A stretch of DNA of 19,774 nucleotides from UHGV virus genome UHGV-0311028, one strand, 5' to 3'. The notes under the pieces were generated by a model. It had not been told where the DNA came from. It did no database searches and was given only the letters and a program-made list of their open reading frames with translations. Made by a program: the position numbers and the translations under genes. This document shows, one piece after another, positions 884-17,688 of the stretch. Position 1 is the first letter of the stretch. Each line of letters starts with the position of its first letter. This stretch comes from a virus.

Positions 884-1219
884 TTATTTTACATCCCAAG
901 GTAGTTCCTCAAGAGAGAAGACTAATTCATTATCAATGATTTCGTATTCTGCATAACCTTCAACCTCTCCTGAGAAGTTATTGTCAACGCATCCTTCATA
1001 ATAGCTATATGGTGCTATAAAGTGAAACCCATATTCATCTATCTCTGTGATTTCAAAATTGTAGTAATCGTAAGAATATCGAATATCATCATCAGAAATA
1101 GAACTAAGTACATAGTTATTAAATTTATCGGAATGCTTAACGATAAGCTCTGACAACGCGTCAAGATTCTCTGGAGAGATATTTCCTAACGGTAATCTGT
1201 ACTCAACGGCATTAATCAT
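884..1219 (-). CDS. Hypothetical acidic protein (moron between Q/late promoter and holin)
   Basis: 111-codon ORF with a strong SD (AAAAAGGAGGTTGT before the ATG). AT-rich relative to neighbours. The product is rich in D/E and aromatic residues (SYDYYNFEITEIDEYGFHFIAPYSYYEG) with no family I recognise. Bracketed by terminator hairpins at 1271-1296 and 844-878. Confidence 0.6.
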   Translation of the reverse strand: MINAVEYRLPLGNISPENLDALSELIVKHSDKFNNYVLSSISDDDIRYSYDYYNFEITEIDEYGFHFIAPYSYYEGCVDNNFSGEVEGYAEYEIIDNELVFSLEELPWDVK

Positions 1220-6788: not shown

Positions 6789-7127
6789 CTATTTCCCTGA
6801 ATTTACGACGAAACTGTTCGAGCGGACTGAAGCATTCATGCTCATAGCCTTCGCGGAGGTAGATAACCCGTTGTGTTTCCGGCTCCCAACGAATGACTCT
6901 GACGGGTACTCCGTAGTGATCTTTGAACCAGCGGTTAACTTGTCGCAAAGGACTGTCTCCTTTTGCCGGTTAAAATCACCCACAGCCCACTCTGCAAAGC
7001 TGTGGGTTACAATTACCCTGCCACCTGGTACATTTACTGCATAGCAATACTCCACCTTCGCTTTTCCACCCGGTACAGGAAGCGCAATCAGTTGCGAGCG
7101 ACGGTAGTGTGTTGTTAAACTGTTCAT
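6789..7127 (-). CDS. Hypothetical protein (between the CII-like gene and the replication initiator)
   Basis: The ATG at 7127-7125 overlaps the stop of the upstream gene (ATGA coupling). Same strand as the whole operon. The competing plus-strand ORF 6772-7044 has no such support. Confidence 0.4.
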
Positions 7128-7693
7128 GCGTTAGTTTCTCCACAACCAGAAGCAATCGACGCCACGACGCCCGGAGCTGCACACTCGCGGGCGTCATTAC
7201 TTTCTGAAATGCAAAAAATTTTGTAGACAAGTGCTGCATGCTCCTGCAGCTTCGAAATTGAGAGATACAGCTCGTCGTTAATTGCTGTCTTCTCATGCGG
7301 TTCCACTACACCGTCTTCGATTGCTGAACGAATCTGTTTTGAATAACTGCCGATCTGTTCAATGACTTCCAGCAGACGCTGGTTAATATCGGCGTTGTCC
7401 ACATCCTCGACGTCAGGAAGAGACACAAAGACGCCATTTGCAGACTGCGCCACAGCATCAGCAATGAAGTGAGTGCCACCAGCACGCTGTAAAACCATTG
7501 CCCATCCCAGCGGGAAAATCTGATCGCCATCTGCACGAAGGCGGTTGAATAAAGCGTTTTCTGTTACATCGAGCCAGTCAGCCGCTTCAGCGTAACCACC
7601 CGGCAACGCCGCGATAGTTTTTCTGACAGCTTTCACGTACCACTCAGGCTGTTTTTCTATTTTCCAGTGATGCTTACCCACGATTAGCCTCAT
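7124..7693 (-). CDS. CII-like phage regulatory protein (CP76/YdaT family), tentative
   Basis: Segment [39 protein letters not shown] resembles the conserved core of phage 186 CII-type (CP76) regulators as recalled. Located immediately downstream of cro. Confidence 0.4.
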
Positions 7694-7724
7694 CGTTCTG
7701 TGGTTAAAAATTGAAAGTGTTCTG

Positions 7725-7925
7725 CTAATCTTTCGGATAGATATCCGGTCTTAAGTCAGATTTCGTAATTGCACCTGACGTGCATTGCTCAAGTTTTTTA
7801 GCCAGCACAAAACTGGCTTTTTTATAGCCATTGAAAACCAGCCGTAAGTAGCCAGGTGTTGAGCCAACTTTTCCGGCCAACTCGCCCTGCTGTTCTTTGG
7901 TTAAAGAGTCCCAATACGCTTTCAT
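7725..7925 (-). CDS. cro: Cro-like HTH repressor
   Basis: 66-aa product MKAYWDSLTKEQQGELAGKVGSTPGYLRLVFNGYKKASFVLAKKLEQCTSGAITKSDLRPDIYPKD with HTH character. Divergent from the CI gene across a 90-bp operator region. SD GGAGGT before the ATG at 7925-7923. The longer ORF to 8228 would run through the operators and the cI start. Confidence 0.6.
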   Translation of the reverse strand: MKAYWDSLTKEQQGELAGKVGSTPGYLRLVFNGYKKASFVLAKKLEQCTSGAITKSDLRPDIYPKD

Positions 7926-7930
7926 ACAAT

Positions 7931-8000
7931 ATGTACCTCCGATGTACATATTACATGATTGAAATGAACCTTCAAGATACTTGTACCTTAACGGTACAAG
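7931..8000. promoter_or_regulatory. Immunity operator/promoter region (oR-like) with two palindromic operator candidates sharing a TGTAC core
   Basis: 7931-7949 ATGTACCTCCGATGTACAT (8 of 9 symmetric positions) and 7980-8000 CTTGTACCTTAACGGTACAAG (9 of 10 symmetric). TTTAAT lies 7 nt before the cI ATG, suggesting a near-leaderless cI transcript as in lambda pRM. Confidence 0.5.
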
Positions 8001-8015
8001 GGTTTTAATTTCGTT

Positions 8016-8690
8016 ATGAAAACAATCCATGACATCCGGCGGTCTAACGCCAGAAAACTGAGAGATGGTGTTGGCGGGAATTCTTCCTTTGCCACTATGA
8101 TTGATCGCGAGCCAACCCAGACCAGCAGGTTTATGGGAGATGGTGCTACTAAAAATATCGGTGACAGCATGGCACGACACATCGAAAAATGTTTCGACCT
8201 GCCTGTCGGATGGCTCGATCAAGAACACCAGACAACGAACATCACAAAAAAACCTGATGTTTCAATCACTAATAAACAAATCACATTAGTCCCTGTCATA
8301 TCATGGGTACAGGCCGGAGCATGGAAAGAAGTTGGATATTCTGAGGTTGATTTGAGCACAGCAGAAACGTATCCCTGCCCTGTCCCCTGTGGGGAAATGA
8401 CTTATATCTTGCGGGTGATAGGTGATTCAATGATTGATGAGTACCGCCCGGGAGACATGATTTTTGTCGATCCTGAAGTACCTGCCTGCCACGGTGACGA
8501 CGTTATTGCATTGATGCACGATACAGGTGAAACCACCTTCAAAAGGTTGATAGAAGATGGGACACAGCGTTATCTCAAAGCGTTAAACCCAAACTGGCCT
8601 GAGCCTTACATTAAGATCAACGGTAATTGCTCTATAATTGGTACAGTGATTTTCTCAGGAAAACCAAGAAGATACAAAATCAAAGCCTAA
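8016..8690 (+). CDS. cI: CI-type prophage repressor with N-terminal HTH and C-terminal S24 (LexA-like) autopeptidase domain
   Basis: C-terminal RVIGDSMIDEYRPGDMIFVD...TFKRLIEDG carries the S24 Ser (GDSM) and Lys (KR) pattern. Divergent from cro. Followed by an intrinsic terminator. Confidence 0.85.
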   Translation: MKTIHDIRRSNARKLRDGVGGNSSFATMIDREPTQTSRFMGDGATKNIGDSMARHIEKCFDLPVGWLDQEHQTTNITKKPDVSITNKQITLVPVISWVQAGAWKEVGYSEVDLSTAETYPCPVPCGEMTYILRVIGDSMIDEYRPGDMIFVDPEVPACHGDDVIALMHDTGETTFKRLIEDGTQRYLKALNPNWPEPYIKINGNCSIIGTVIFSGKPRRYKIKA

Positions 8691-8702
8691 TCAATGTTTA
8701 TG

Positions 8703-8727
8703 AACCTGCTTCGGCAGGTTTTTTTAT
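8703..8727 (+). terminator. Rho-independent terminator after cI
   Basis: AACCTGC-TTCG-GCAGGTT hairpin followed by TTTTTTT. Confidence 0.65.
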
Positions 8728-8729
8728 AC

Positions 8730-8757
8730 TTGACAATGTACCTTTGAGATACATAAT
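8730..8757 (+). promoter_or_regulatory. Candidate rightward promoter (pL-like): TTGACA, 16-bp spacer, CATAAT, with a TGTACC operator-like motif in the spacer
   Basis: Read directly from the sequence. Position is immediately after the cI terminator, and the spacer motif matches the oR half-sites. Confidence 0.35.
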
Positions 8758-9179
8758 GTATCCAAGAGAAACAACAAACAGGCAGGACGTCCACGAAGTA
8801 GCCGCCTGGGGCATATGAAGTCCAAGATGATTCGTTAGCAACAAAACGCCCATAGGACGCTTCGCTCTTTAACAATTTGAATATTTTCAGCGTCAATGAT
8901 CTGTTTAGCTCCCTACAAGTAAATGTAGCGTAGCACCATGATAAATCCTGCTAGTGTTTAGTTAAAAATCGCGCGAGAGCAAGAACGACGTGAGGGCAGG
9001 CAATATTGATAGTGTTATTGCTATTAGTTTATCAAAAATATTTAGACGACCCAGATGAATATTTTTAATACATACTCCCCCTAATTTAACAGGAGTAAAT
9101 GTTGATGAATAACGAGACATCTATACTCAACAATTGTATGATATGAACAATTATATAACATAATGTAGGAAAAATAAAA

Positions 9180-9776
9180 ATGGATTGGCATGACCTTATA
9201 TCAAAGGTAATTATCGGACTTGTTACAGGCTCAATCGCAGCTTACTTAACTGCGCGATATGCACTCGGCCGTTATTATAAAGAAAAATGGTGGGACAAAA
9301 GAATAGATTTGTATACGCAATTAGTTGACTGTGTTTATCTTCTAAAAAACACAGCTGACTATTGGTATAAACATGAGTTACATCACGCTTCACAATTCCC
9401 AACCTACTTTAGTTACAAATCAAAAGAAGAAAATGAAATCCTTAGCAAATCTTTCTCTAATGAGCTTGAAAAACTCAGTAGAATAGGTGAGCTATCTTCA
9501 TTATTCTTAACAGAAGAGTGTGGGGATAAAATCCGTTCATTCATTGAAAATGAAGAAAATCTATTTATACAATGGGAGTTTGATAGTATAGAGTTGATAG
9601 ATGCCCACAAGTCAAGACTTGATAAATTAAAAGTATTACTAGACGATATTATCTCTGAAGCAAAGAGAGAGCTTAAGGTCAATAAAAAACATAACAGCCT
9701 AAAGAATATAAAGTGGTCCATAACTATGCCAGACCAAAAAAATGATGAGCCAATTAATTATTACGACAATCATTAA
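9180..9776 (+). CDS. Hypothetical membrane-anchored protein (AT-rich moron downstream of cI); possible superinfection-exclusion/abortive-infection function
   Basis: 198 aa with one N-terminal hydrophobic helix (VIIGLVTGSIAAYLTARYAL) and a charged, probably helical remainder. SD AGGA 8 nt before the ATG. Has its own terminator at 9787-9808. Strongly AT-rich. Confidence 0.6.
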   Translation: MDWHDLISKVIIGLVTGSIAAYLTARYALGRYYKEKWWDKRIDLYTQLVDCVYLLKNTADYWYKHELHHASQFPTYFSYKSKEENEILSKSFSNELEKLSRIGELSSLFLTEECGDKIRSFIENEENLFIQWEFDSIELIDAHKSRLDKLKVLLDDIISEAKRELKVNKKHNSLKNIKWSITMPDQKNDEPINYYDNH

Positions 9777-9786
9777 AACACTTTAG

Positions 9787-9808
9787 AACCCGCTGGGCGG
9801 GTTTTATT
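9787..9808 (+). terminator. Rho-independent terminator after the cI-proximal moron
   Basis: AACCCGC-TGG-GCGGGTT hairpin followed by TTTTATT. Confidence 0.6.
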
Positions 9809-10198
9809 CAAATATACTTTGCACATCACAAATAAAACTATAACGTCCTTCTTCTTTTCCTAATATCTTATATCTACTTATTTATAAGCGGCTTACAGAT
9901 CTTCAACAGATAAACCTAATGAAGGCGACAATGTTCTGATGAATAGCCACCTTTTTACTCAACTGAAAGCGCGTTCTGTCCCTTGTCATTAAGTGCCAGT
10001 TCGTTAAGTCCAAAACCTCCGGAACGCGCTTTCAATTGAGTGGGGAAAATAACTGGCGATGGCAGCCGCCCGTTGCACTAAGTGCCTCTGGATGGGGCAT
10101 TTACTGAAACGAAACCAAAACTTTTAATCGCCTTATGGCGAGGGATTCGTGCAACCAAAAATCGTGCGGTGCAGCGCACCAATTAAGGAGAACTAACG

Positions 10199-10735
10199 AT
10201 GAGTTTTATCCAGACTCTTACCGGTAAGAAGTTCAATTATATCAACTCCACCATTGACGATATTTATATCGAGGATATCGCCGGTGCGCTTTCAAATATC
10301 TGCCGCTTCGCGGGACACTTGCCGGATTTTTACAGCGTGGCGCAGCATTCCGTTCTGTGCAGTCAACTTGTGGCGCCAGAGTTCGCCTTTGAAGCGTTAA
10401 TGCATGATGCAACAGAAGCGTATTGTCAGGACATCCCCGCGCAACTGAAACGCCTTCTTCCTGACTATAAACGGATGGAAGAAAAAATAGACGCCGTAAT
10501 CCGTGAGAAATACGGGTTACCCCCGGTTATGAGCACGCCCGTGAAATATGCCGATCTCATCATGCTGGCAACCGAACGCCGCGATCTCGGGCTTGATGAT
10601 GGCTCTTTCTGGCCTCTACTGGAAGGTATCCCAGCAACAGAGATGTTCAAAGTTATTCCACTGTCGCCAGGCCATGCCTACGGGATGTTTATGGAACGTT
10701 TTAACGAGTTATCGGAGTTACGCAAATGCGCATGA
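10199..10735 (+). CDS. HD-domain phosphohydrolase (prophage early-left gene)
   Basis: H...HD...D arrangement (AQHSVLCSQL, ALMHDATEAY, DLIMLATERRDLG). SD AAGGAG. First gene after a roughly 400-bp leader. Confidence 0.55.
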   Translation: MSFIQTLTGKKFNYINSTIDDIYIEDIAGALSNICRFAGHLPDFYSVAQHSVLCSQLVAPEFAFEALMHDATEAYCQDIPAQLKRLLPDYKRMEEKIDAVIREKYGLPPVMSTPVKYADLIMLATERRDLGLDDGSFWPLLEGIPATEMFKVIPLSPGHAYGMFMERFNELSELRKCA

Positions 10736-11088
10736 ATGTTTTCGAAATGGAAGGGTTTCTTCGCGGGAAATGTGTACCGCGAGATCTGAAAGTGAATGAA
10801 ACGGATGCTGAATACCTGGTGCGTAAATTCGATGCGCTTGAAGCTAAATGTGCGGCACTGGAAAACAAAGTAATACCAGTGTCAACTGAACTGCCACCAG
10901 CAAATGAAAGTGTTTTGTTATTCGATGCTAACGGAGAAGGCTGGCTAATTGGCTGGCGTTCTCTCTGGTACACCTGGGGACAAAAAGAAACCGGAGACTG
11001 GCAGTGGACATTTCAGGTCGGGGACCTTGAAAACGTCAATATCACTCACTGGGCAGTAATGCCAAAAGCACCGGAGGCTGGAGCATAA
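10726..11088 (+). CDS. Hypothetical protein (possible DUF551-like C-terminus)
   Basis: ORF with SD GGAG, overlapping the upstream stop by 10 nt. W-rich C-terminus (GWLIGWRSLWYTWGQKETGDWQWTF). Confidence 0.45.
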   Translation: MRMNVFEMEGFLRGKCVPRDLKVNETDAEYLVRKFDALEAKCAALENKVIPVSTELPPANESVLLFDANGEGWLIGWRSLWYTWGQKETGDWQWTFQVGDLENVNITHWAVMPKAPEAGA

Positions 11089-11393
11089 TGACCACTTTTA
11101 CCGACAAAGAACTGATTAAAGAAATCAAAGAGCGTATCAGCAGCCTTGACGTGCGAGACGATATTGAGCGCCGTGCTTATGAAATCGCACTCCTATCTCT
11201 GGAAGTAGAGCCAGATGAACGCGAATCCTATGAATTATTTATGGAAAAACGTTTCGGTGGCTTAGTAGATAGTCGGAGAGCAAAAAACGGCGATAACGAA
11301 TACATGGCATGGGATATGACTCTCGGTTGGATCGTCTGGCAACAACGAGCTGGCATTCATTTTTCAACAATATCACAGCAAGAGGTGAAATAA
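11088..11393 (+). CDS. Hypothetical protein
   Basis: TAATG overlap with the upstream gene; SD GGAGG. No recognised motif. Confidence 0.45.
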   Translation: MTTFTDKELIKEIKERISSLDVRDDIERRAYEIALLSLEVEPDERESYELFMEKRFGGLVDSRRAKNGDNEYMAWDMTLGWIVWQQRAGIHFSTISQQEVK

Positions 11394-11743
11394 TGGAACC
11401 ATACAGCCTCACGCTAGATGAGGCCTGTCATTTTCTCAAGATATCCAGACCGACTGCCATTAACTGGATACGCACAGGGCGTCTGCAGGCAACACGCAAA
11501 GATCCCACTAAGAATAAATCTCCTTACCTCACAACACGACAAGCCTGCATTGCGGCGCTTCAGTCTCCGCTGCATACTGTCCAGGTGAGCGCGGGTGATG
11601 GCATAACAGAGGAAAGAAAATGTCACTCTTCCGCAGAGGTGAAATATGGTACGCCAGTTTCACATTGCCGAACGGTAAAAGATTTAAACAGTCTCTTGGA
11701 ACAAAGGACAAAAGGCAGGCGACAGAACTCCATGACAAGCTAA
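11393..11743 (+). CDS. xis: Excisionase (Xis, HTH_17/AlpA-like); 3' end overlaps int and may be shorter than the ORF
   Basis: [37 protein letters not shown] is a typical excisionase/AlpA-type HTH. ATG at 11393 with SD AGAGGTGA and TAATG coupling. Directly upstream of int. Confidence 0.6.
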
Positions 11744-12783
11744 AGGCTGAAGCATGGCGGGTCAGCAAACTTGGTGAAATTCCTGATATAACGTTCGAGG
11801 AAGCGTGTGTCAGGTGGCTTGAAGAGAAAGCACATAAAAAATCACTGGACGATGACAAAAGCCGGATCGGATTCTGGCTTCAACATTTCGCAGGAATGCA
11901 ACTAAGAGACATTACTGAATCAAAAATTTATTCAGCAATGCAGAAAATGACGAACCGGCGTCATGAGGAAAACTGGAAACTCAGGGCAGAAGCATGCAGA
12001 AAAAAAGGGAAACCTGTTCCAGAATACACGCCAAAACCAGCGTCCGTTGCAACGAAGGCTACGCATCTTTCATTTATAAAGGCCCTGCTAAGAGCCGCAG
12101 AGCGTGAATGGAAAATGCTGGATAAGGCACCAATTATTAAAGTGCCTCAACCAAAGAATAAACGGATCCGCTGGCTGGAGCCTCATGAAGCACAAAGGCT
12201 GATTGATGAATGTCCGGAGCCATTAAAGTCTGTTGTTGAATTTGCACTTGCAACAGGCTTAAGACGCTCGAACATCATCAACCTTGAATGGCAACAAATA
12301 GACATGCAGCGCCGGGTGGCATGGATAAACCCGGAAGAGAGTAAATCAAACCGCGCAATTGGCGTTGCGCTGAATGATACTGCATGTCGCGTATTGAAAA
12401 AACAAATCGGGAATCATCACCGTTGGGTATTTGTGTATAAGGAAAGCTGTACCAAACCAGACGGAACGAAAGCGCCAACAGTCAGGAAGATGCGGTATGA
12501 CGCAAACACAGCCTGGAAAGCGGCGCTGAGACGAGCAGGTATTGATGATTTCAGATTTCACGACTTGAGACACACCTGGGCAAGTTGGCTGGTTCAAGCC
12601 GGAGTCCCGTTATCAGTGTTACAGGAAATGGGAGGCTGGGAGTCTATCGAAATGGTTCGTCGATATGCTCACCTCGCACCTAATCACCTTACCGAACACG
12701 CACGGCAAATAGACTCGATTCTGAACCCATCGGTCCCAAATTTGTCCCAGTCAAGAAATAAGGAAGGTACTAATGATGTGTAA
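11620..12783 (+). CDS. int: Tyrosine integrase, P22 Int / DLP12 IntD family
   Basis: 387 aa. N-terminus [34 protein letters not shown] and C-terminal catalytic region [39 protein letters not shown] (R...H-x-x-R...Y) match P22-type integrases from memory. SD AGAGGAAAG. Ends 15 bp from the tRNA-derived att core. Confidence 0.9.
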
Positions 12784-12797
12784 CTTATTGATTTAAA

Positions 12798-12843
12798 TGG
12801 TGCCGATAATAGGAGTCGAACCTACGACCTTCGCATTACGAAT
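12798..12843 (-). other. Attachment-site core: 46 nt identical to the 3' end of a tRNA-Thr(CGU) gene (thrW-type), anticodon loop to CCA; not an intact tRNA
   Basis: The reverse complement reads ATTCGTAATGCGAAGGTCGTAGGTTCGACTCCTATTATCGGCACCA: anticodon CGT, T-arm GGTTCGACTCC, acceptor 3' strand and CCA. The 5' half of the tRNA is absent (the sequence continues tataagaatcc...). Confidence 0.8.
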
Positions 12844-13233: not shown

Positions 13234-16200
13234 TTATCTCGTAAAATTAGTTTTATGACTTCCTGTTAGCTGACTGTCTTCATAATAAAATGCCCCACTA
13301 AACTCCTGTCGACCATAATGATGACTTGATGTGAGTGAGCCCCCTATAACATCTTTTTCACCTAATAATGTCCAAACGATTTCAAAACCATTTTCCCTTA
13401 ACATTGTTAAAAATGGTTCTTTTTTAACAAGTAGATACGGCTTTGAAGCATATACAGCTTCAGCTGCAAAGCAAACCATAGTTCCATTTTCATCATTGAA
13501 GCTACCCTCTACTTCCCCATTTTTTAAGCCCATCTTTTCAAAGATTAAGTTGCTAGGCTTCAAAAAATTCAAAGCTTCTATTTTTGATTTGTCGAACTCC
13601 TCTCCCCACAAATAATTAATCGAAGTGACACTAACATCAGCTATCTTAGCTCCAGACTCCCGGTCTGTTACCGAAGTCCAGTCAGAACCAGCATAATAAT
13701 CTGATTTAAAAGACTTAAATGCTTCGGACCAATAGTACTCCCTATTAAATAATTGGTATCTATCAGTACCTTCCGGCATCCACCTGCCCATAAAGTCTTG
13801 AGCTATTGCCCAACATCTAAAATTTTCAAATTCTTCAACTTTAACGATATAACTTCTGATCTGATACCAAACCTCTTTTCGTGGGTGCCCCCAATCATCG
13901 TTTCCAATAATTTTTGGTTCTTTCCATGATGGATAACTTTCTAATACTATCCATTCATCACCATTATCATCTTTAACTTCAATCAAAGCATATGGATTAG
14001 TTATAGTAGTAGAGCTTTGAACCCAGTCTTCATTAGAGCAAGTCCAATCAAACACTTCATCATTAAACCACCACATTTCTTTATTGCTTATTTTTTTCGT
14101 CCCAGTTTCTTTAAGTAAGATAGTGGGATCTATATCTCTTACGTAAGGCTCCCATGGCCCTTGGTATGGGTTTTCCTTTCGGTCGTCACCATAACCTTCA
14201 AAATGAATAAAATTATCGGCTAGCCTTGCCATGTATTCATAATAAGCAATCCATTGGTATTTTTTACCAATCCGTTCTTGGAATTCCTCTCTACGTCCAC
14301 GTCCAGTTCCTATTTGTTGGTCAAAATCACCATGCTTCTCCGGATCCCAACCAAGATCCAGAACACGATTGAATATAAATTGTTGAGCTAGTCGAAGATC
14401 AAAGTGTTTATCAGTTTCCAGCAGATTATTATTATGATCTAGGTATGGCTCTATTTCATTTTCAAACTCACTTAACAGATCGTATGACAATGAATTCTTA
14501 AATAGCTTCTTGCTCGCCTTTATTTCTTCCTGTGTTTTTCTACCGACCACGCTACCCAATTTAATACCTTCACATTTATCATCATAAATGAAAGGATCTG
14601 TGGCATCATATAAATCTTTTTGTTGATCAGTTAGTTTACATTTGAAAGTTTTAAAAACTCGCTTACGGTCAACAGGGGTTTCATTAAACTTGCAACCAGA
14701 CCAATCAGAATGATTATAATTTGTTCCAATAGTATATCGTGAAAAGTCACCACCTTCCATAATCGAGCTCCAGAGTTCCCGATAAGGTTCTTTATCATAA
14801 AGGGACTCTAGTTCCTCTTTTGAAGGAATCTTGTCAGGCCAAATGCTGTTGTAGGGTGGTCTAGTCTTGGATAATTCAATGCTTTCAAGTTCCAATCCAA
14901 GATGATTAGCAAATTCAATAATCTCTCTAGCATAATCTCTAAGTAATATATTTGGATACACATACTCAGAACAAAATACCTTTTGGTAAACAGTTTCGGC
15001 TAAATATTTTAGTTCTTTAATATTATCAGTTCGCAATGTACAACCCAATGCAACTGCAAATATTCTTTCCCAAACGTAAGGATCATTTACACCATAAAAC
15101 TTATCAATTATTTTTCTCAATACAGGAATTCTTGGCTCGAGTAAACTCACTAAAGCCTTGGTTGAGCAATCTCGAAGTTCTCGGTTACTAGAAGTTAAAA
15201 ACCAGCATAAACTAGTTGCAACTAGCTCGATTGACTCATCCGAAACGAAGCTTTTATCTGTTCTGCCCCATGCCCAATCGATTAGATGCCTAAATGCTGA
15301 GTCTTCACTATATTTATATTTAAGTTTTGTAGTCCAACACGAATCTCGATTTCCCAAAGAGTAATCTTTTAGCCAATCATGCAAAAAATTAGCATTAAAG
15401 GGATGGTCAACTAAACCTGAAATAGAGATCACTGCCTCGAGAAAATGATCAAAACTACCTTTAAATTTAAAAACATGTTCATTGATGAAAGGTCTGATTT
15501 TTTCGAAATCAATAGCCTTAATATCTCGCCATATCAAGCTATCAATAAAGGCTTCTAGTAATTTATGATTATTGCTGAACTCCGGCAGAAATTCATAAAG
15601 CTCTTTTCCATACTTTTCTGGCAATTGAATAGAAAGCGCCTCAACTATTCCCGAGTTTGTATAAAAATCACATTCATCATGAAAATATTTTTTCAGACAA
15701 CCATCTGACTTAAATTCATTTTCGATATTTTCAACATCATTTAATAAAAAATTAACAGTTAAATGATCATCAAACCTTTCAAAAGCCACATGAACTACTT
15801 CCTCAGTAGCATTATCATTATTTCTCACTATGCCTTTAGTCAATAATCCTTCGTCAATCAAGGCGCTGAGGAAATTTTTATCTGTAACATAATCATTAAC
15901 TACAGATTGAACCACTGAGTGAGCATCTCTAAGTGAAATACTATTACTACCAATCTCTAATTTGAATTTTATGATTTCGTTGAGAGCATCTTTTACAAGA
16001 GGAAAACTGGGATCGAAATCATATTTTCTTGGCGATGCCAATGATTTATTCACCCCTTCCACTAAAAAGTTAAAAATATTTGAAATCCCATTAAACCCAA
16101 CAGGTACTTTGGTTAAACCATTTTTCTTAATGCCTTCACACAATAACTTAAGAAATAGAGGGTTTTTAAACTCTGGATTAAGATTCGGTGATGAAGGCCT

Positions 16201-17688
16201 CTCTATATTGTAATAATCATAAAATAGACTAACCGCTTCTAACTCAACATTCTGAAATCCAATATGTTCATGAATTTCAAAATTATTTCGCTCAACATTC
16301 TCATGTGAAATTGTTACATTTCTATATGTTGTTCTGACTGACATTATCAGACCAAGCCATTCAAAGCATCTGATTTCATCGACAAAACTGTTAATATTGT
16401 CATTCCAGAATTTATTTCCATTACCTTCATTAATAGCATCAATGAAAACCAAGACTCTTTTTCCTGTTTTTTTGCCATATAAATTCAGTTTTTCCAGGAA
16501 TTCACGAGAAGTGATTTTAAGCTGTAATCTCTTGAAGATCTGTGACCATGGAGATTCATCTGAAGTAAGTTGTTGCCCTAGTATGAGTAGAGAAGGATAT
16601 CCAGAAGCAATTCGATTTTTAATCACATCAGCCAGTAAATGAGACTTACCAATTCCAGCTTTTCCTTCGAGAAGTAAGAATGGGTTGTTAGCCAACTTTA
16701 CTGTTGTTGAATTAATGAATGTACGTAATTCATTGCACGCATAGTCAAGTTCCCGAAGCATTCGCAGAGTAGATGAATACTTATCACTGTAATGCTTGGT
16801 TTCACCTACTTGTTCTGACTTTTCTCGGAGTTCCCACAATATTGATTCCGCTCCGCCAATAGCTGTCTGGCAGCTGTCAACATAGTTATTAAATTTATTT
16901 ATAGGAATTTGATCTAATTTAGAAAAATTAAGCCCTTGATATATATCCGCAATTTGATTTAAGGACTCGTCTATTACAGATAATTCTGAGTAAATTACAT
17001 CGCAACTATGTAACCTCTTTCTAGTCATCAGAAAATTATCTATATGTGAGTAAAATATTTTAGCAAAATCATCAGTTCTACCGAGACCATCAAATATCTC
17101 TGCTATTTCTAGCTTTACGTTGAGTTCGGGTGTGTATCGGCCTCCCAAGTCAGCTATTGCTTGACTATTTTTTTCATTTAACCAATCATCACTCAAGTGA
17201 AAAGTTAGTTTCTCATCTATAGACCGCAAAATAAGTTTAACTTGAATAAGCTCTTCATTAATATCGAATATTTTTTCTTTATACGTTTCTTCGATATGTA
17301 GCTTTTTTAACTTCGAACAATTATTGATTTTTAACGATAACATCTCATAAAAAAGGCTGAGTTGTTGTTGAGTTGGGGGGGTGATGCTTGGATATTCTTT
17401 GAACTTGTCTAATAATATCCCTTTGTCAGGAAACTCTTTAAACAAGATGTGTTCATTCAACATCTCAAACAATGGTTCAGAATGATAAAATGGAATTGCT
17501 CCACTTTCTACTGGATATGTTTCTTCAAACTCAATTGCCGTCTCTTCAATTAGTTGATATAATCTATCCACATATCTTTTTTGGGGGAATAATGCTTTCT
17601 TAATACAACCATATCCTTCTTGAGAGATGAATTGATCAATAAGTTTAGTTGCTACATAAGTTGCCACTGTAATTGATATAAGTTCCAT
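13234..17688 (-). CDS. Large P-loop NTPase with NACHT/STAND-like motifs (1484 aa); candidate antiphage defence protein; N- and C-terminal domains unassigned
   Basis: Uninterrupted 4455-nt ORF. ATG at 17688-17686 with upstream GGAAGAAG. Walker A GKAGIGKS (aa 342-349, nt 16642-16665), Walker B-like VLVFIDAINE (aa 412-421) and a sensor-1-like LIMSVRTT (aa 447-454). Strongly AT-rich relative to int and pin. Plus-strand ORFs inside it are short shadows. Confidence 0.85.
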   Translation of the reverse strand: MELISITVATYVATKLIDQFISQEGYGCIKKALFPQKRYVDRLYQLIEETAIEFEETYPVESGAIPFYHSEPLFEMLNEHILFKEFPDKGILLDKFKEYPSITPPTQQQLSLFYEMLSLKINNCSKLKKLHIEETYKEKIFDINEELIQVKLILRSIDEKLTFHLSDDWLNEKNSQAIADLGGRYTPELNVKLEIAEIFDGLGRTDDFAKIFYSHIDNFLMTRKRLHSCDVIYSELSVIDESLNQIADIYQGLNFSKLDQIPINKFNNYVDSCQTAIGGAESILWELREKSEQVGETKHYSDKYSSTLRMLRELDYACNELRTFINSTTVKLANNPFLLLEGKAGIGKSHLLADVIKNRIASGYPSLLILGQQLTSDESPWSQIFKRLQLKITSREFLEKLNLYGKKTGKRVLVFIDAINEGNGNKFWNDNINSFVDEIRCFEWLGLIMSVRTTYRNVTISHENVERNNFEIHEHIGFQNVELEAVSLFYDYYNIERPSSPNLNPEFKNPLFLKLLCEGIKKNGLTKVPVGFNGISNIFNFLVEGVNKSLASPRKYDFDPSFPLVKDALNEIIKFKLEIGSNSISLRDAHSVVQSVVNDYVTDKNFLSALIDEGLLTKGIVRNNDNATEEVVHVAFERFDDHLTVNFLLNDVENIENEFKSDGCLKKYFHDECDFYTNSGIVEALSIQLPEKYGKELYEFLPEFSNNHKLLEAFIDSLIWRDIKAIDFEKIRPFINEHVFKFKGSFDHFLEAVISISGLVDHPFNANFLHDWLKDYSLGNRDSCWTTKLKYKYSEDSAFRHLIDWAWGRTDKSFVSDESIELVATSLCWFLTSSNRELRDCSTKALVSLLEPRIPVLRKIIDKFYGVNDPYVWERIFAVALGCTLRTDNIKELKYLAETVYQKVFCSEYVYPNILLRDYAREIIEFANHLGLELESIELSKTRPPYNSIWPDKIPSKEELESLYDKEPYRELWSSIMEGGDFSRYTIGTNYNHSDWSGCKFNETPVDRKRVFKTFKCKLTDQQKDLYDATDPFIYDDKCEGIKLGSVVGRKTQEEIKASKKLFKNSLSYDLLSEFENEIEPYLDHNNNLLETDKHFDLRLAQQFIFNRVLDLGWDPEKHGDFDQQIGTGRGRREEFQERIGKKYQWIAYYEYMARLADNFIHFEGYGDDRKENPYQGPWEPYVRDIDPTILLKETGTKKISNKEMWWFNDEVFDWTCSNEDWVQSSTTITNPYALIEVKDDNGDEWIVLESYPSWKEPKIIGNDDWGHPRKEVWYQIRSYIVKVEEFENFRCWAIAQDFMGRWMPEGTDRYQLFNREYYWSEAFKSFKSDYYAGSDWTSVTDRESGAKIADVSVTSINYLWGEEFDKSKIEALNFLKPSNLIFEKMGLKNGEVEGSFNDENGTMVCFAAEAVYASKPYLLVKKEPFLTMLRENGFEIVWTLLGEKDVIGGSLTSSHHYGRQEFSGAFYYEDSQLTGSHKTNFTR

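What the first reader, a model, noticed from the sequence alone, without database searches (positions are those of the whole stretch)
9180..9776. AT-rich membrane-anchored moron in the rexAB-equivalent position downstream of cI
Immediately downstream of the repressor gene (the position of rexA/rexB in lambda) there is a free-standing, strongly AT-rich gene with its own SD and intrinsic terminator. It encodes a 198-aa protein with a single N-terminal TM helix and a charged cytoplasmic body. Lysogen-expressed genes at this locus are classically exclusion or abortive-infection functions. No homology recognised.
Basis: partly seen in the sequence, partly recalled or inferred. Interest (0 to 1): 0.6.

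Follow-up and report, generated by a model that had tools for sequence, protein, structure and literature searches.

The report
Self-contained membrane-protein moron beside PL
A real, AT-rich, stand-alone prophage gene for a small inner-membrane-anchored helical protein of an unnamed family whose distant relatives sit in bacterial anti-phage defence islands, so it is a credible but untested candidate for a new single-gene phage-defence protein.

Summary
The ORF (9180-9776, +, 198 aa) is real. It has GC 0.33 against about 0.46 in the flanks, an AGGA Shine-Dalgarno, a strong terminator hairpin (9784-9806), one N-terminal TM helix (N-out/C-in) and dN/dS of about 0.15.

It is not in the rexAB position. 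The e14-type repressor (CohE/YmfK, 8016-8690) has its own terminator. The "candidate promoter" at 8730-8757 carries the same operator as the cI-cro region, so it is the PL equivalent. An rrn-type boxA follows it. The gene fills a variable cargo slot downstream of PL, with its own conserved promoter-like element (9114-9142).

The family has 376 representatives across several phyla and no Pfam, NCBIfam or PADLOC match; PHROG 17948 is "unknown function". The AlphaFold model (pLDDT 90) shows a TM helix running into a generic four-helix bundle.

In prophages, family members are typical morons: AT-rich in 77/78 loci, and 48/61 have their own terminator against 17/131 neighbouring genes. They occur at four or more different genome positions. 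Distant members (hhalign 97%) lie beside McrBC, SIR2, TIR, HEPN, ToxN or Shedu genes in 7 of 9 sampled loci.

Best reading: a lysogen-expressed single-gene defence candidate, probably membrane-acting. The function is inferred, not shown.

The parts
8016..8690 (+). cI-type repressor (e14 CohE/YmfK; context, not part of the cassette)
   Evidence: Peptidase_S24 at 1.5e-26. Annotated ymfK / LexA family protein in more than 1300 E. coli genomes.
8702..8721 (+). Intrinsic terminator of the repressor gene
   Evidence: 8-bp GC-rich stem followed by a U7 run; -11.6 kcal/mol, z = -3.8.
8730..8757 (+). PL-equivalent promoter TTGACA-16-CATAAT (11/12 match)
   Evidence: Found by the promoter scan. It holds the repressor operator in its spacer. 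The Raoultella locus L086 has the same design with a different operator.
8737..8753 (.). OL-type operator TGTACCTTTGAGATACA (a weaker second copy at 8757-8773)
   Evidence: The pattern TGTACC-N5-GGTACA with up to 2 mismatches occurs 3 times in 19.8 kb: at 7932, 7982 (cI-cro intergenic) and 8737. Expected number 0.43 (repeats).
8863..8875 (+). rrn-type boxA (CGCTCTTTAACAA) in the PL leader, preceded by a short imperfect hairpin at about 8847-8859
   Evidence: One exact copy of GCTCTTTAACAA in the window. The same 12 bases are given as the rrnB boxA in PMC2176067. Lambda nutL boxA is CGCTCTTA. Conserved in L086, L089 and L090 and in many E. coli prophages of other immunity.
8885..9949 (.). Variable cargo segment; other e14-type prophages hold different genes here
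   Evidence: Similarity to other E. coli prophages stops at about 8840-8885 and resumes at about 9950. Other occupants are ymfJ/ymfI (L004), a 170-aa minus-strand gene (L005), and others in L130 and L131.
9114..9142 (+). Candidate own sigma-70 promoter GAGACA-17-TATGAT
   Evidence: 9/12 match. AGAGACAT and TTGTATrATA stay conserved in four loci whose synonymous sites are saturated. In Raoultella the -10 is TATAAT. Family-wide, promoter-like sites are enriched upstream, mostly ending 31-38 nt before the ATG. No transcript data exist.
9168..9171 (+). Shine-Dalgarno AGGA, 8 nt before the ATG
   Evidence: Read directly from the sequence.
9180..9776 (+). CDS of 198 aa: TM helix at about 6-28, juxtamembrane motif R-Y-Y-K-E-K-W-W-D-K-R (31-41), four-helix bundle to about 167, variable tail 168-198
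   Evidence: AlphaFold2 pLDDT 90.4. Invariant W38 and near-invariant E35 and L165. PHROG 17948. dN/dS 0.155.
9784..9806 (+). Intrinsic terminator of the cassette (GC core 9789-9801, U-run 9802-9808)
   Evidence: -13.6 kcal/mol, z = -4.1. Conserved in Raoultella. 48 of 61 family members have such a hairpin, against 17 of 131 neighbouring genes.

Best explanation
Anatomy (high confidence, about 0.85): 9114-9806 is an autonomous transcription unit of the classical moron type, with its own promoter, SD, gene and terminator. It is dropped into the variable cargo slot at the promoter-proximal end of the early-left (PL) operon of an e14-type lambdoid phage.

Expression (inferred): in the lysogen the repressor shuts PL through the operator at 8737-8753. 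The gene would then be read only from its own weak promoter and stop at its own terminator. After induction, PL transcripts modified at the boxA site would read through it towards yfdR, xis and int.

Product: a bitopic inner-membrane protein with a short periplasmic N-terminus. One long helix forms the TM segment, the highly conserved juxtamembrane EKWW motif and the first helix of a cytoplasmic four-helix bundle.

Function (inferred, about 0.45): a single-gene anti-phage defence protein expressed by the lysogen. The mechanism I favour is abortive-infection-like. The cytoplasmic bundle senses an infection cue, and the TM/EKWW helices then self-associate and compromise the inner membrane. Blocking of genome entry at the membrane is the main alternative.
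For: Cassette:
- Base composition.
- Terminator.
- Conserved promoter-like element.
- Presence/absence polymorphism: the cassette is in 16 complete E. coli genomes, against 1323 genomes with the same immunity region.

PL and operator logic: repeated with a different operator in Raoultella. boxA.

Family-wide moron signature in 61-78 viral loci:
- Gene GC is on average 13 points below the flanks, and lower in 77/78 loci.
- Terminator-like hairpin in 48/61 members against 17/131 neighbours, p = 4e-19. Median gaps are 59 and 69 nt against 10 nt for neighbours.
- Promoter-like sites in 19/61 against 8/258, p = 1e-9.
- The gene sits at four or more unrelated positions: Mu-F/scaffold, TraR/xis-int, lysis/terminase, cI/PL.

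Defence association:
- Distant members are homologous over the full length (hhalign 97.1%, E = 7e-11).
Binomial P is 5e-5 even at an assumed 15% background. The published E. coli background is 2% under a stricter definition (PMC13092281).
- Neighbours in genome contigs include KwaA/KwaB, TIR-TM, dGTPase and MzaB.
- No conserved partner gene exists: 123 Pfam families among 150 neighbours.
- The same phage carries Avs2 in another AT-rich slot.

Structure and topology.
Against: - There is no functional or expression data of any kind.
- No PADLOC, Pfam or NCBIfam model matches the protein or 73 relatives.
- The defence-island sample is small (9 loci) and has no matched control. It concerns members only 14-25% identical to this protein.
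- Other occupants of the same slot in related prophages are not known defence genes.
- The own promoter scores only 9/12 in AT-rich DNA, where such matches are common (8 found against 8.1 expected in the region).
- DNA at 32% GC is typically H-NS-silenced in E. coli (general knowledge).
- Only 2 of 50,697 phage records carry a homologue.
Confidence: 0.45

Rival explanations
1. Superinfection exclusion at genome entry. The membrane-anchored protein sits in the inner membrane of the lysogen and blocks DNA translocation of incoming phages without killing the cell. Known examples of this kind are HK97 gp15, P22 SieA and lactococcal Sie2009.
For: It has a bitopic inner-membrane topology. It is a moron with its own promoter and terminator. 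The close subfamily always lies between the repressor and the integrase end of lambdoid prophages, which is where Sie2009-type genes lie (from memory of the literature).
Against: Nearly all of the protein is cytoplasmic, and the periplasmic tail is only about 5-7 residues. The family spans several phyla and sits in chromosomal defence islands and a mobilisable element. Entry blockers are usually narrow and prophage-restricted (general knowledge). No sequence relation to any named Sie protein was found.
Confidence: 0.15
2. An early lytic function for the phage itself. As the first ORF after PL and boxA, it would be made on induction and act on the host membrane, for example on proteolysis, division or lysis timing. 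It would not be made for the lysogen's benefit.
For: It lies directly downstream of the PL-like promoter and boxA and is co-oriented with the early-left operon. In CobraSix and OS31 the homologue sits inside the early-left gene string next to xis and int. In other phages it lies inside late operons and is always co-oriented with them.
Against: An essential or useful lytic gene would not be present in only 16 of 1323 or more prophages of the same immunity type. It would not occupy four unrelated genome positions. It would not carry its own terminator in 79% of cases. It would not occur outside prophages in defence islands. Topology excludes an i-spanin, since Rz-type proteins are N-in/C-out, and in context (c) a separate Rz is present.
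Confidence: 0.15
3. A lysogenic-conversion factor unrelated to phages: a membrane protein that changes host envelope physiology or stress tolerance.
For: It has the same moron signature as lambda bor and lom. It is membrane-anchored. It has no detectable enzymatic or nucleic-acid-binding domain.
Against: The defence-island neighbourhood of distant members points to phage conflict rather than general physiology. The bulk of the protein is cytoplasmic rather than surface-exposed.
Confidence: 0.12
4. Silent cargo: a horizontally acquired AT-rich gene that is H-NS-silenced and currently does nothing in E. coli.
For: GC is 0.33. The own promoter is only a 9/12 match. The gene is rare in E. coli.
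Against: There is strong purifying selection (dN/dS 0.11-0.17). The identical protein is seen on 666 contigs. Promoter blocks stay conserved although synonymous sites are saturated.
Confidence: 0.08

Closest known systems
Lambda sieB (superinfection exclusion B, abortive-infection type)
   Same: It is a lysogen-expressed, membrane-associated protein of about 180-190 aa. It is encoded just downstream of PL/nutL/N inside the early-left operon and has its own expression signals. The lambda map gives the position; the expression details are from memory.
   Different: There is no sequence or profile relation: Pfam SieB does not match, and hhalign gives probability 0.1%. Lambda sieB is on the strand opposite to PL, whereas this gene is co-oriented with PL. 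This protein has a single TM helix plus a four-helix bundle.
Lambda rexA/rexB
   Same: It is prophage cargo near the repressor gene with a presumed membrane-acting protective role.
   Different: rexAB lies between cI and OL/PL and is co-transcribed with cI from PRM (textbook knowledge). Here a terminator and the PL-like promoter-operator intervene. This is a single gene, not a pair. RexB is polytopic and unrelated (hhalign 0.6%).
Morons of lambdoid phages (lambda bor and lom, HK97 gp15; Hendrix/Juhala definition)
   Same: It is an extra gene present in some but not other related phages. It is flanked by its own promoter and terminator and has deviant base composition. All three features were seen here and family-wide. 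HK97 gp15 is also a small inner-membrane protein that excludes phages (from memory).
   Different: The protein family is different, and the insertion site is the PL leader rather than the late operon. Other family members are in late operons.
Lactococcal Sie2009-type proteins / AbiP
   Same: They are small proteins with an N-terminal membrane anchor. They are encoded between the repressor and integrase of temperate phages (Sie2009), or are membrane-anchored with a cytoplasmic body (AbiP). Both comparisons are from memory of the literature.
   Different: They come from Gram-positive hosts. No sequence similarity could be tested here or is known. The family here also occurs in chromosomal defence islands of many phyla.
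PHROG 17948
   Same: Full-length match (1-185 of 185, E = 6e-95). This protein is a member.
   Different: The PHROG has no function assigned. It covers only the close phage-borne subset of the wider family of 376 representatives.

Membership tests
rexAB-equivalent locus (lambda) | Located between cI and OL/PL and co-transcribed with cI | tested here: not met
   The cI terminator is at 8702-8721. The PL-like promoter with operator at 8730-8757 lies between cI and the gene. The lambda layout is shown for comparison.
rexAB-equivalent locus (lambda) | Homology to RexA or RexB; two-gene system | tested here: not met
   hhalign against RexB gives probability 0.6%. It is a single gene with no conserved partner.
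SieB (PF14163) | Sequence/profile match to SieB | tested here: not met
   No Pfam hit for the protein (E <= 10) or for 73 relatives. hhalign against lambda SieB gives probability 0.1%.
Moron (Hendrix/Juhala sense) | Present in some and absent from other closely related phages | tested here: met
   16 complete E. coli genomes carry it, whereas 1323 carry the same immunity region. Other genes occupy the same slot in related prophages.
Moron (Hendrix/Juhala sense) | Own transcription terminator | tested here: met
   Hairpin at 9784-9806, z = -4.1. Family-wide 48/61 against 17/131 neighbours, p = 4e-19. Met in silico only.
Moron (Hendrix/Juhala sense) | Own promoter active in the lysogen | tested here: inconclusive
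   GAGACA-17-TATGAT at 9114-9142 is conserved in 4 diverged loci. Family-wide enrichment is 19/61 against 8/258. However, the upstream DNA is AT-rich, the match is only 9/12, and no transcript data exist.
Moron (Hendrix/Juhala sense) | Base composition different from the surrounding phage genes | tested here: met
   0.33 against about 0.46 here. 77/78 family loci are lower than their flanks, by 13 points on average.
Known anti-phage defence systems (PADLOC-DB 2.0) | Profile match to a catalogued defence protein | tested here: not met
   0 families for the protein. Only scattered chance-level hits among 73 relatives.
Candidate defence gene (defence-island criterion of Doron/Gao) | Family members enriched next to known defence genes | tested here: met
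   7 of 9 loci of distant members have McrBC, SIR2, TIR, HEPN, ToxN, Shedu or ApeA-like neighbours. PADLOC hits occur among neighbours. Homology of these members is supported by hhalign 97.1%. The sample is small, there is no matched control, and domain-level calls were used rather than complete systems.
Candidate defence gene | Protects cells against phage infection | not testable with these tools
   This needs plaque and liquid-infection assays.
Spanin / holin (lysis proteins) | i-spanin topology (N-in, periplasmic coiled coil) or holin-type TM pattern, located in the lysis cassette | tested here: not met
   The positive-inside pattern gives N-out/C-in with a cytoplasmic body. Holin, endolysin and the lysis protein are elsewhere in this phage. 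In lysis-adjacent contexts a separate Rz is present.
PHROG 17948 | Full-length profile match | tested here: met
   6.1e-95, residues 1-185 against profile positions 1-185 of 185.

The most novel reading that the evidence does not exclude
The gene is a founding, experimentally tractable member of an undescribed single-gene anti-phage defence family that spans several phyla. It consists of a TM helix, an invariant juxtamembrane EKWW motif and a cytoplasmic four-helix bundle. It travels both as a promoter-gene-terminator moron in prophages and as a stand-alone gene in defence islands. It would act by infection-triggered self-assembly in the inner membrane.
Probability: 0.3. Interest if true: 0.65.

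Novelty: new member of a known kind. Interest (0 to 1): 0.45.

Why it matters
If it is active, this would add a very small defence determinant (about 160-aa core, one gene, no enzyme domain) that no current catalogue detects. It is found from Enterobacterales to Deltaproteobacteria, Alphaproteobacteria, Bacteroidota and CPR bacteria. It would also give a clean model, in an E. coli e14-type prophage, for how a minimal membrane-anchored helical bundle senses infection.

The locus also illustrates how cargo with its own terminator can sit inside an antiterminated early operon. The cargo slot just after the PL/boxA leader of e14-type prophages holds a series of unknown genes worth screening together.

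Tried and rejected
- Pfam, NCBIfam and PADLOC on the protein gave nothing significant. Pfam and PADLOC on 73 relatives also gave nothing significant.
- PDB sequence searches with the protein and with the profile returned only chance-level hits.
- The first structure model, built from 7 sequences, was poor (pLDDT 64) and was replaced by the 73-sequence model.
- hhalign against lambda SieB and RexB showed no relation.
- An Rfam scan of 7600-10300 at E <= 1 found nothing, so the boxA leader is not a catalogued RNA family.
- The minus-strand 52-aa ORF at 8962-9120 is present only in near-identical copies. It is not called or conserved in L086, L089 or L090, so I treat it as spurious.
- Other occupants of the same slot in related prophages had no PADLOC hits, so 'guilt by slot' is unsupported.
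- Literature searches for the accession and the PHROG id found nothing, and the DefensePredictor supplements do not list the protein. The e14 genome paper is not held.

Full report
**1. The observation**

- Composition drops to GC 0.333 in the CDS and 0.322 over 9000-9949. The left flank (7000-8884) is 0.454 and the right flank (9950-12783) is 0.472.
- AGGA lies 8 nt before the ATG.
- Eight bases after the stop, a hairpin at 9784-9806 folds at -13.6 kcal/mol (z = -4.1; none of 200 shuffles as stable). It is followed by UUUUAUU.
- The only hydrophobic stretch is at about residues 6-28 (Kyte-Doolittle peak 1.6). The N-tail MDWHD is acidic, and the following RYALGRYYKEKWWDKR is basic, so the positive-inside rule gives N-out/C-in.
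- The gene is under purifying selection. dN/dS is 0.155 against a 73%-identical Raoultella orthologue and about 0.11 for residues 1-167. The tail 168-198 is much freer.

**2. Where it really sits**

The surrounding element is an e14-type lambdoid prophage of E. coli. Its genes include terminase, lysis genes, a Q-type antiterminator, RusA, ymfL, ymfT (cro-like), ymfK/cohE (cI-like, Peptidase_S24), yfdR-type HD hydrolase, xis and int.

The repressor gene (8016-8690) ends with its own terminator at 8702-8721 (-11.6 kcal/mol, z = -3.8, U7 tail).

Nine bases later comes TTGACA-16-CATAAT (8730-8757, 11/12 match). Its spacer contains TGTACCTTTGAGATACA.
- The palindrome TGTACC-N5-GGTACA (up to 2 mismatches) occurs three times in the 19.8-kb window. 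Two copies are in the cI-cro intergenic region (7932, 7982) and the third is here (expected 0.43).
- This is the lambdoid OR/OL design. The promoter is therefore the PL equivalent and should be repressed in the lysogen.
- The Raoultella orthologous locus (L086) has an unrelated repressor and repeats the design with a different operator. ACAGTTTTATCTGT occurs both in its cI-cro region and inside a TTGACC...TATCAT promoter just after the cI terminator.

About 105 nt downstream of the promoter lies an exact rrn-type boxA (GCTCTTTAACAA, 8864-8875; a single exact copy in the window).
- The same 12 bases are the rrnB boxA in PMC2176067.
- Lambda nutL has CGCTCTTA.

In lambda, rexAB lies between cI and OL/PL, while nutL, N and sieB lie after PL. 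The present gene is therefore in the N/sieB region, not the rexAB position, and it is not co-transcribed with cI.

**3. A variable slot and a self-contained cassette**

- The immunity region up to about 8840-8885 is shared by 1323 of 5426 complete E. coli genomes. The cassette is present in only 16. Similarity resumes at about 9950, upstream of yfdR.
- Related prophages carry other genes in the same place. These are ymfJ/ymfI in K-12 e14, a 170-aa minus-strand gene, and an ECs1072-family gene. They are usually followed by yfdP-yfdQ-yfdR. None of these occupants matches a PADLOC model.
- I aligned the upstream region with three diverged orthologous loci (52-73% protein identity, different repressors). 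AGAGACAT and TTGTATrATA remain conserved, which corresponds to GAGACA-17-TATGAT at 9114-9142 (9/12 match). Synonymous sites in the same comparison are saturated. In Raoultella the -10 is TATAAT.
- The terminator is conserved in Raoultella.
- I therefore read 9114-9806 as an autonomous unit. Whether it is transcribed in the lysogen is inferred, not shown. AT-rich DNA produces such promoter matches easily (8 found against 8.1 expected in the region), and it is commonly H-NS-silenced (general knowledge).

**4. The protein family**

- Named libraries give nothing: Pfam, NCBIfam and PADLOC on the protein, and PDB by sequence. PHROG 17948 ('unknown function') matches over its full length (6e-95).
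- Only 10 close relatives exist among 5.8 billion proteins.
- A profile search of 1.84 billion representatives finds 376 at E <= 1e-3. Nearly all those listed are 150-200 aa with the same layout.
- Seventy-three members have no Pfam family, and all source names are 'hypothetical protein'.
- Across the 73 members, the N-tail has a median of 7 residues with 0.2 K/R. The 16 residues after the TM carry 4.9 K/R. 69/73 reach KD >= 1.6, and none has a second TM.
- The best-conserved part of the whole family is the juxtamembrane motif [RK]-[FY]-Y-x-E-K-W-W-E-K (W38 invariant, E35 96%). A C-terminal A-K-x-x-L-K is also conserved (L165 93%).
- With the 73-sequence alignment, AlphaFold2 gives pLDDT 90.4. 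One continuous helix spans residues 3-70 (TM, then EKWW, then bundle helix 1). Helices 82-104, 112-133 and 139-164 follow, and the tail is of low confidence.
- Fold searches return only generic four-helix bundles. The structure does not identify a mechanism.

**5. Behaviour of the family in phages**

IMG/VR holds 139 relatives. In 78 loci the gene's GC is on average 13 points below its flanks, and it is lower in 77/78.

The gene occurs in at least four unrelated contexts and is always co-oriented with its neighbours:
- between the Mu-F-like head protein and the DUF2213 scaffold/capsid genes;
- between a TraR zinc-finger gene and xis-int;
- between lysozyme/Rz and the gpA terminase;
- after a cI-type repressor, which applies to the close subfamily with three different repressors.

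Its spacing and signals differ from those of its neighbours:
- Median intergenic gaps are 59 and 69 nt, against 10 nt for neighbours.
- A terminator-like hairpin plus T-run follows 48 of 61 distinct members, against 17 of 131 co-oriented neighbours (Fisher p = 4e-19).
- Promoter-like sites (>= 9/12) precede 19/61 members against 8/258 neighbours (p = 1e-9). The -10 mostly ends 31-38 nt before the ATG.

This is the textbook moron signature. Only two isolated phages of 50,697 records carry a homologue: Enterobacter phage CobraSix gp34 and Serratia phage OS31 p04. Both homologues lie in the early-left string near xis/int.

**6. Behaviour outside phages**

The family reaches Deltaproteobacteria, Alphaproteobacteria, Burkholderiales, Bacteroidota, Calditrichota, Acidobacteriota and a CPR genome. 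It has no conserved partner gene: 123 Pfam families occur among 150 neighbours.

A group of 152-168-aa members is homologous to the close subfamily over the whole length (hhalign 97.1%, E = 7e-11, 145 columns). I sampled nine of their loci, chosen only for long contigs. Seven have defence-type genes next to or near the gene:
- McrBC plus AAA_15/21 ATPases;
- SIR2_2+DUF4020 plus PIN;
- TIR_2, HEPN_Swt1, Schlafen/AlbA_2 and Mrr_cat on a mobilisable element;
- HEPN plus ToxN;
- PIN plus SIR2_2;
- SduA (Shedu);
- ApeA_NTD1 (weak) plus a trypsin-like protease.

Even with an assumed 15% background, 7/9 has P = 5e-5. The published background for E. coli genes lying within 10 genes of a known system is 2%, against 17% for known defence genes (PMC13092281).

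PADLOC hits among the +/-3 neighbours of 33 genome loci include KwaA/KwaB, TIR-TM, dGTPase, MzaB, a type III methyltransferase and PDC-S02.

Caveats: the sample is small, there is no matched control, the calls are at domain level, and these members share only 14-25% identity with the window protein.

**7. Interpretation**

Shown in silico:
- a real, constrained gene;
- a bitopic N-out/C-in protein;
- a cassette with its own terminator;
- a location downstream of a repressor-controlled PL-like promoter and a boxA;
- presence/absence polymorphism;
- family-wide moron behaviour;
- defence-island neighbourhoods for distant members.

Inferred:
- transcription from 9114-9142 in the lysogen;
- read-through from PL after induction because of boxA-dependent antitermination;
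- an anti-phage role.

I commit to a single-gene defence function (about 0.45). Within it I favour an abortive-infection-like membrane mechanism, in which a cytoplasmic bundle acts as sensor and the TM/EKWW helices act as a self-associating effector. My reasons are these:
- Almost all of the protein is cytoplasmic.
- The most conserved element is at the membrane interface.
- There is no enzymatic domain.
- The family is broadly distributed in defence islands rather than tied to one phage-receptor system.

Rivals are entry-blocking exclusion (0.15), an early lytic function for the phage (0.15), non-phage lysogenic conversion (0.12) and silent cargo (0.08).

**8. Comparison and novelty**

- In logic, the closest analogue is lambda sieB (a membrane protein expressed from within the PL operon just past N), together with classical morons such as HK97 gp15.
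- It is not a member of SieB or RexB, nor of any catalogued defence family.
- It is a member of PHROG 17948.
- The kind (a prophage moron with a likely protective membrane protein) is well known, but the protein family is undescribed. Hence 'new member of a known kind', with moderate interest. It is a good and cheap experimental candidate, but one among many uncharacterised defence candidates.

Noticed in passing
window 13234-17688 (-): A 1484-aa AT-rich ORF (GC about 0.33) is a full-length Avs2 (AVAST type 2, STAND NTPase) defence protein (PADLOC 1749 bits). It has no Pfam hit. It lies between the integrase and a Pin-type invertase, in the slot where K-12 e14 carries lit/mcrA. RefSeq annotates the same gene as avs2 next to pinE in 87 E. 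coli genomes.
   Followed up: partly
window 8846-8915 and 8970-8995: The PL leader carries a short imperfect hairpin, an exact rrn-type boxA (8863-8875) and a boxC-like CAATGATCTGTTTAG. A further conserved non-coding block, CGCGAGAGC.AGAACG.CGTGAG, follows. These are conserved across prophages with different repressors, and no N-like gene follows. This suggests rrn-style (Nus-factor) antitermination of the early-left operon. Rfam has no match.
   Followed up: partly
window 7932-7998 and 8737-8773: Operator set of the e14 CohE repressor, with consensus TGTACC-N5-GrTACA. There are three sites in the cI-cro region (7932, 7965 weak, 7982) and one or two over the PL-like promoter. I found no description of these operators in the papers I could reach.
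   Followed up: partly
window 12784-12843 and onwards: Similarity to the 16 ORF-carrying chromosomes stops about 60 nt after the integrase stop (about 12843). The window then continues into Avs2, pinE and a tail-collar gene, which is the other prophage end. The window therefore looks like a circular/excised or differently permuted form of the phage. A 44.8-kb E. coli record (NZ_CP172337.1) has avs2, pinE and an integrase together. No tRNA gene is present in the window.
   Followed up: partly
window 884-1219 (-): A second AT-rich patch (GC about 0.34 over 750-1350) holds a 111-aa ORF between the Q-type antiterminator (1405-2157) and the holin/lysis genes. This is the classical late-promoter moron position. 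It has no Pfam or PADLOC match.
   Followed up: partly
L005 5194-5706, L130 3136-3651, L131 3156-3768, L004 5166-5753: The slot right after the PL/boxA leader of e14-type prophages holds a series of different small genes of unknown function, several of them on the strand opposite to PL. None matches PADLOC. This is a possible uncharted cargo hotspot.
   Followed up: partly
window 8962-9120 (-): A 52-aa hydrophobic ORF lies antisense and just upstream of the gene. It is present only in near-identical copies and is not conserved in diverged orthologous loci, so it is probably not a gene.
   Followed up: yes
L138 (ENA ERZ21829562 contig, 14.5 kb): A mobilisable element (relaxase, MobC, RepA_C, AlpA) carries a dense defence island: HEPN_Swt1, Schlafen/AlbA_2, TIR_2, Mrr_cat and a DEAD/ResIII protein. 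A family member sits in the middle of it.
   Followed up: no
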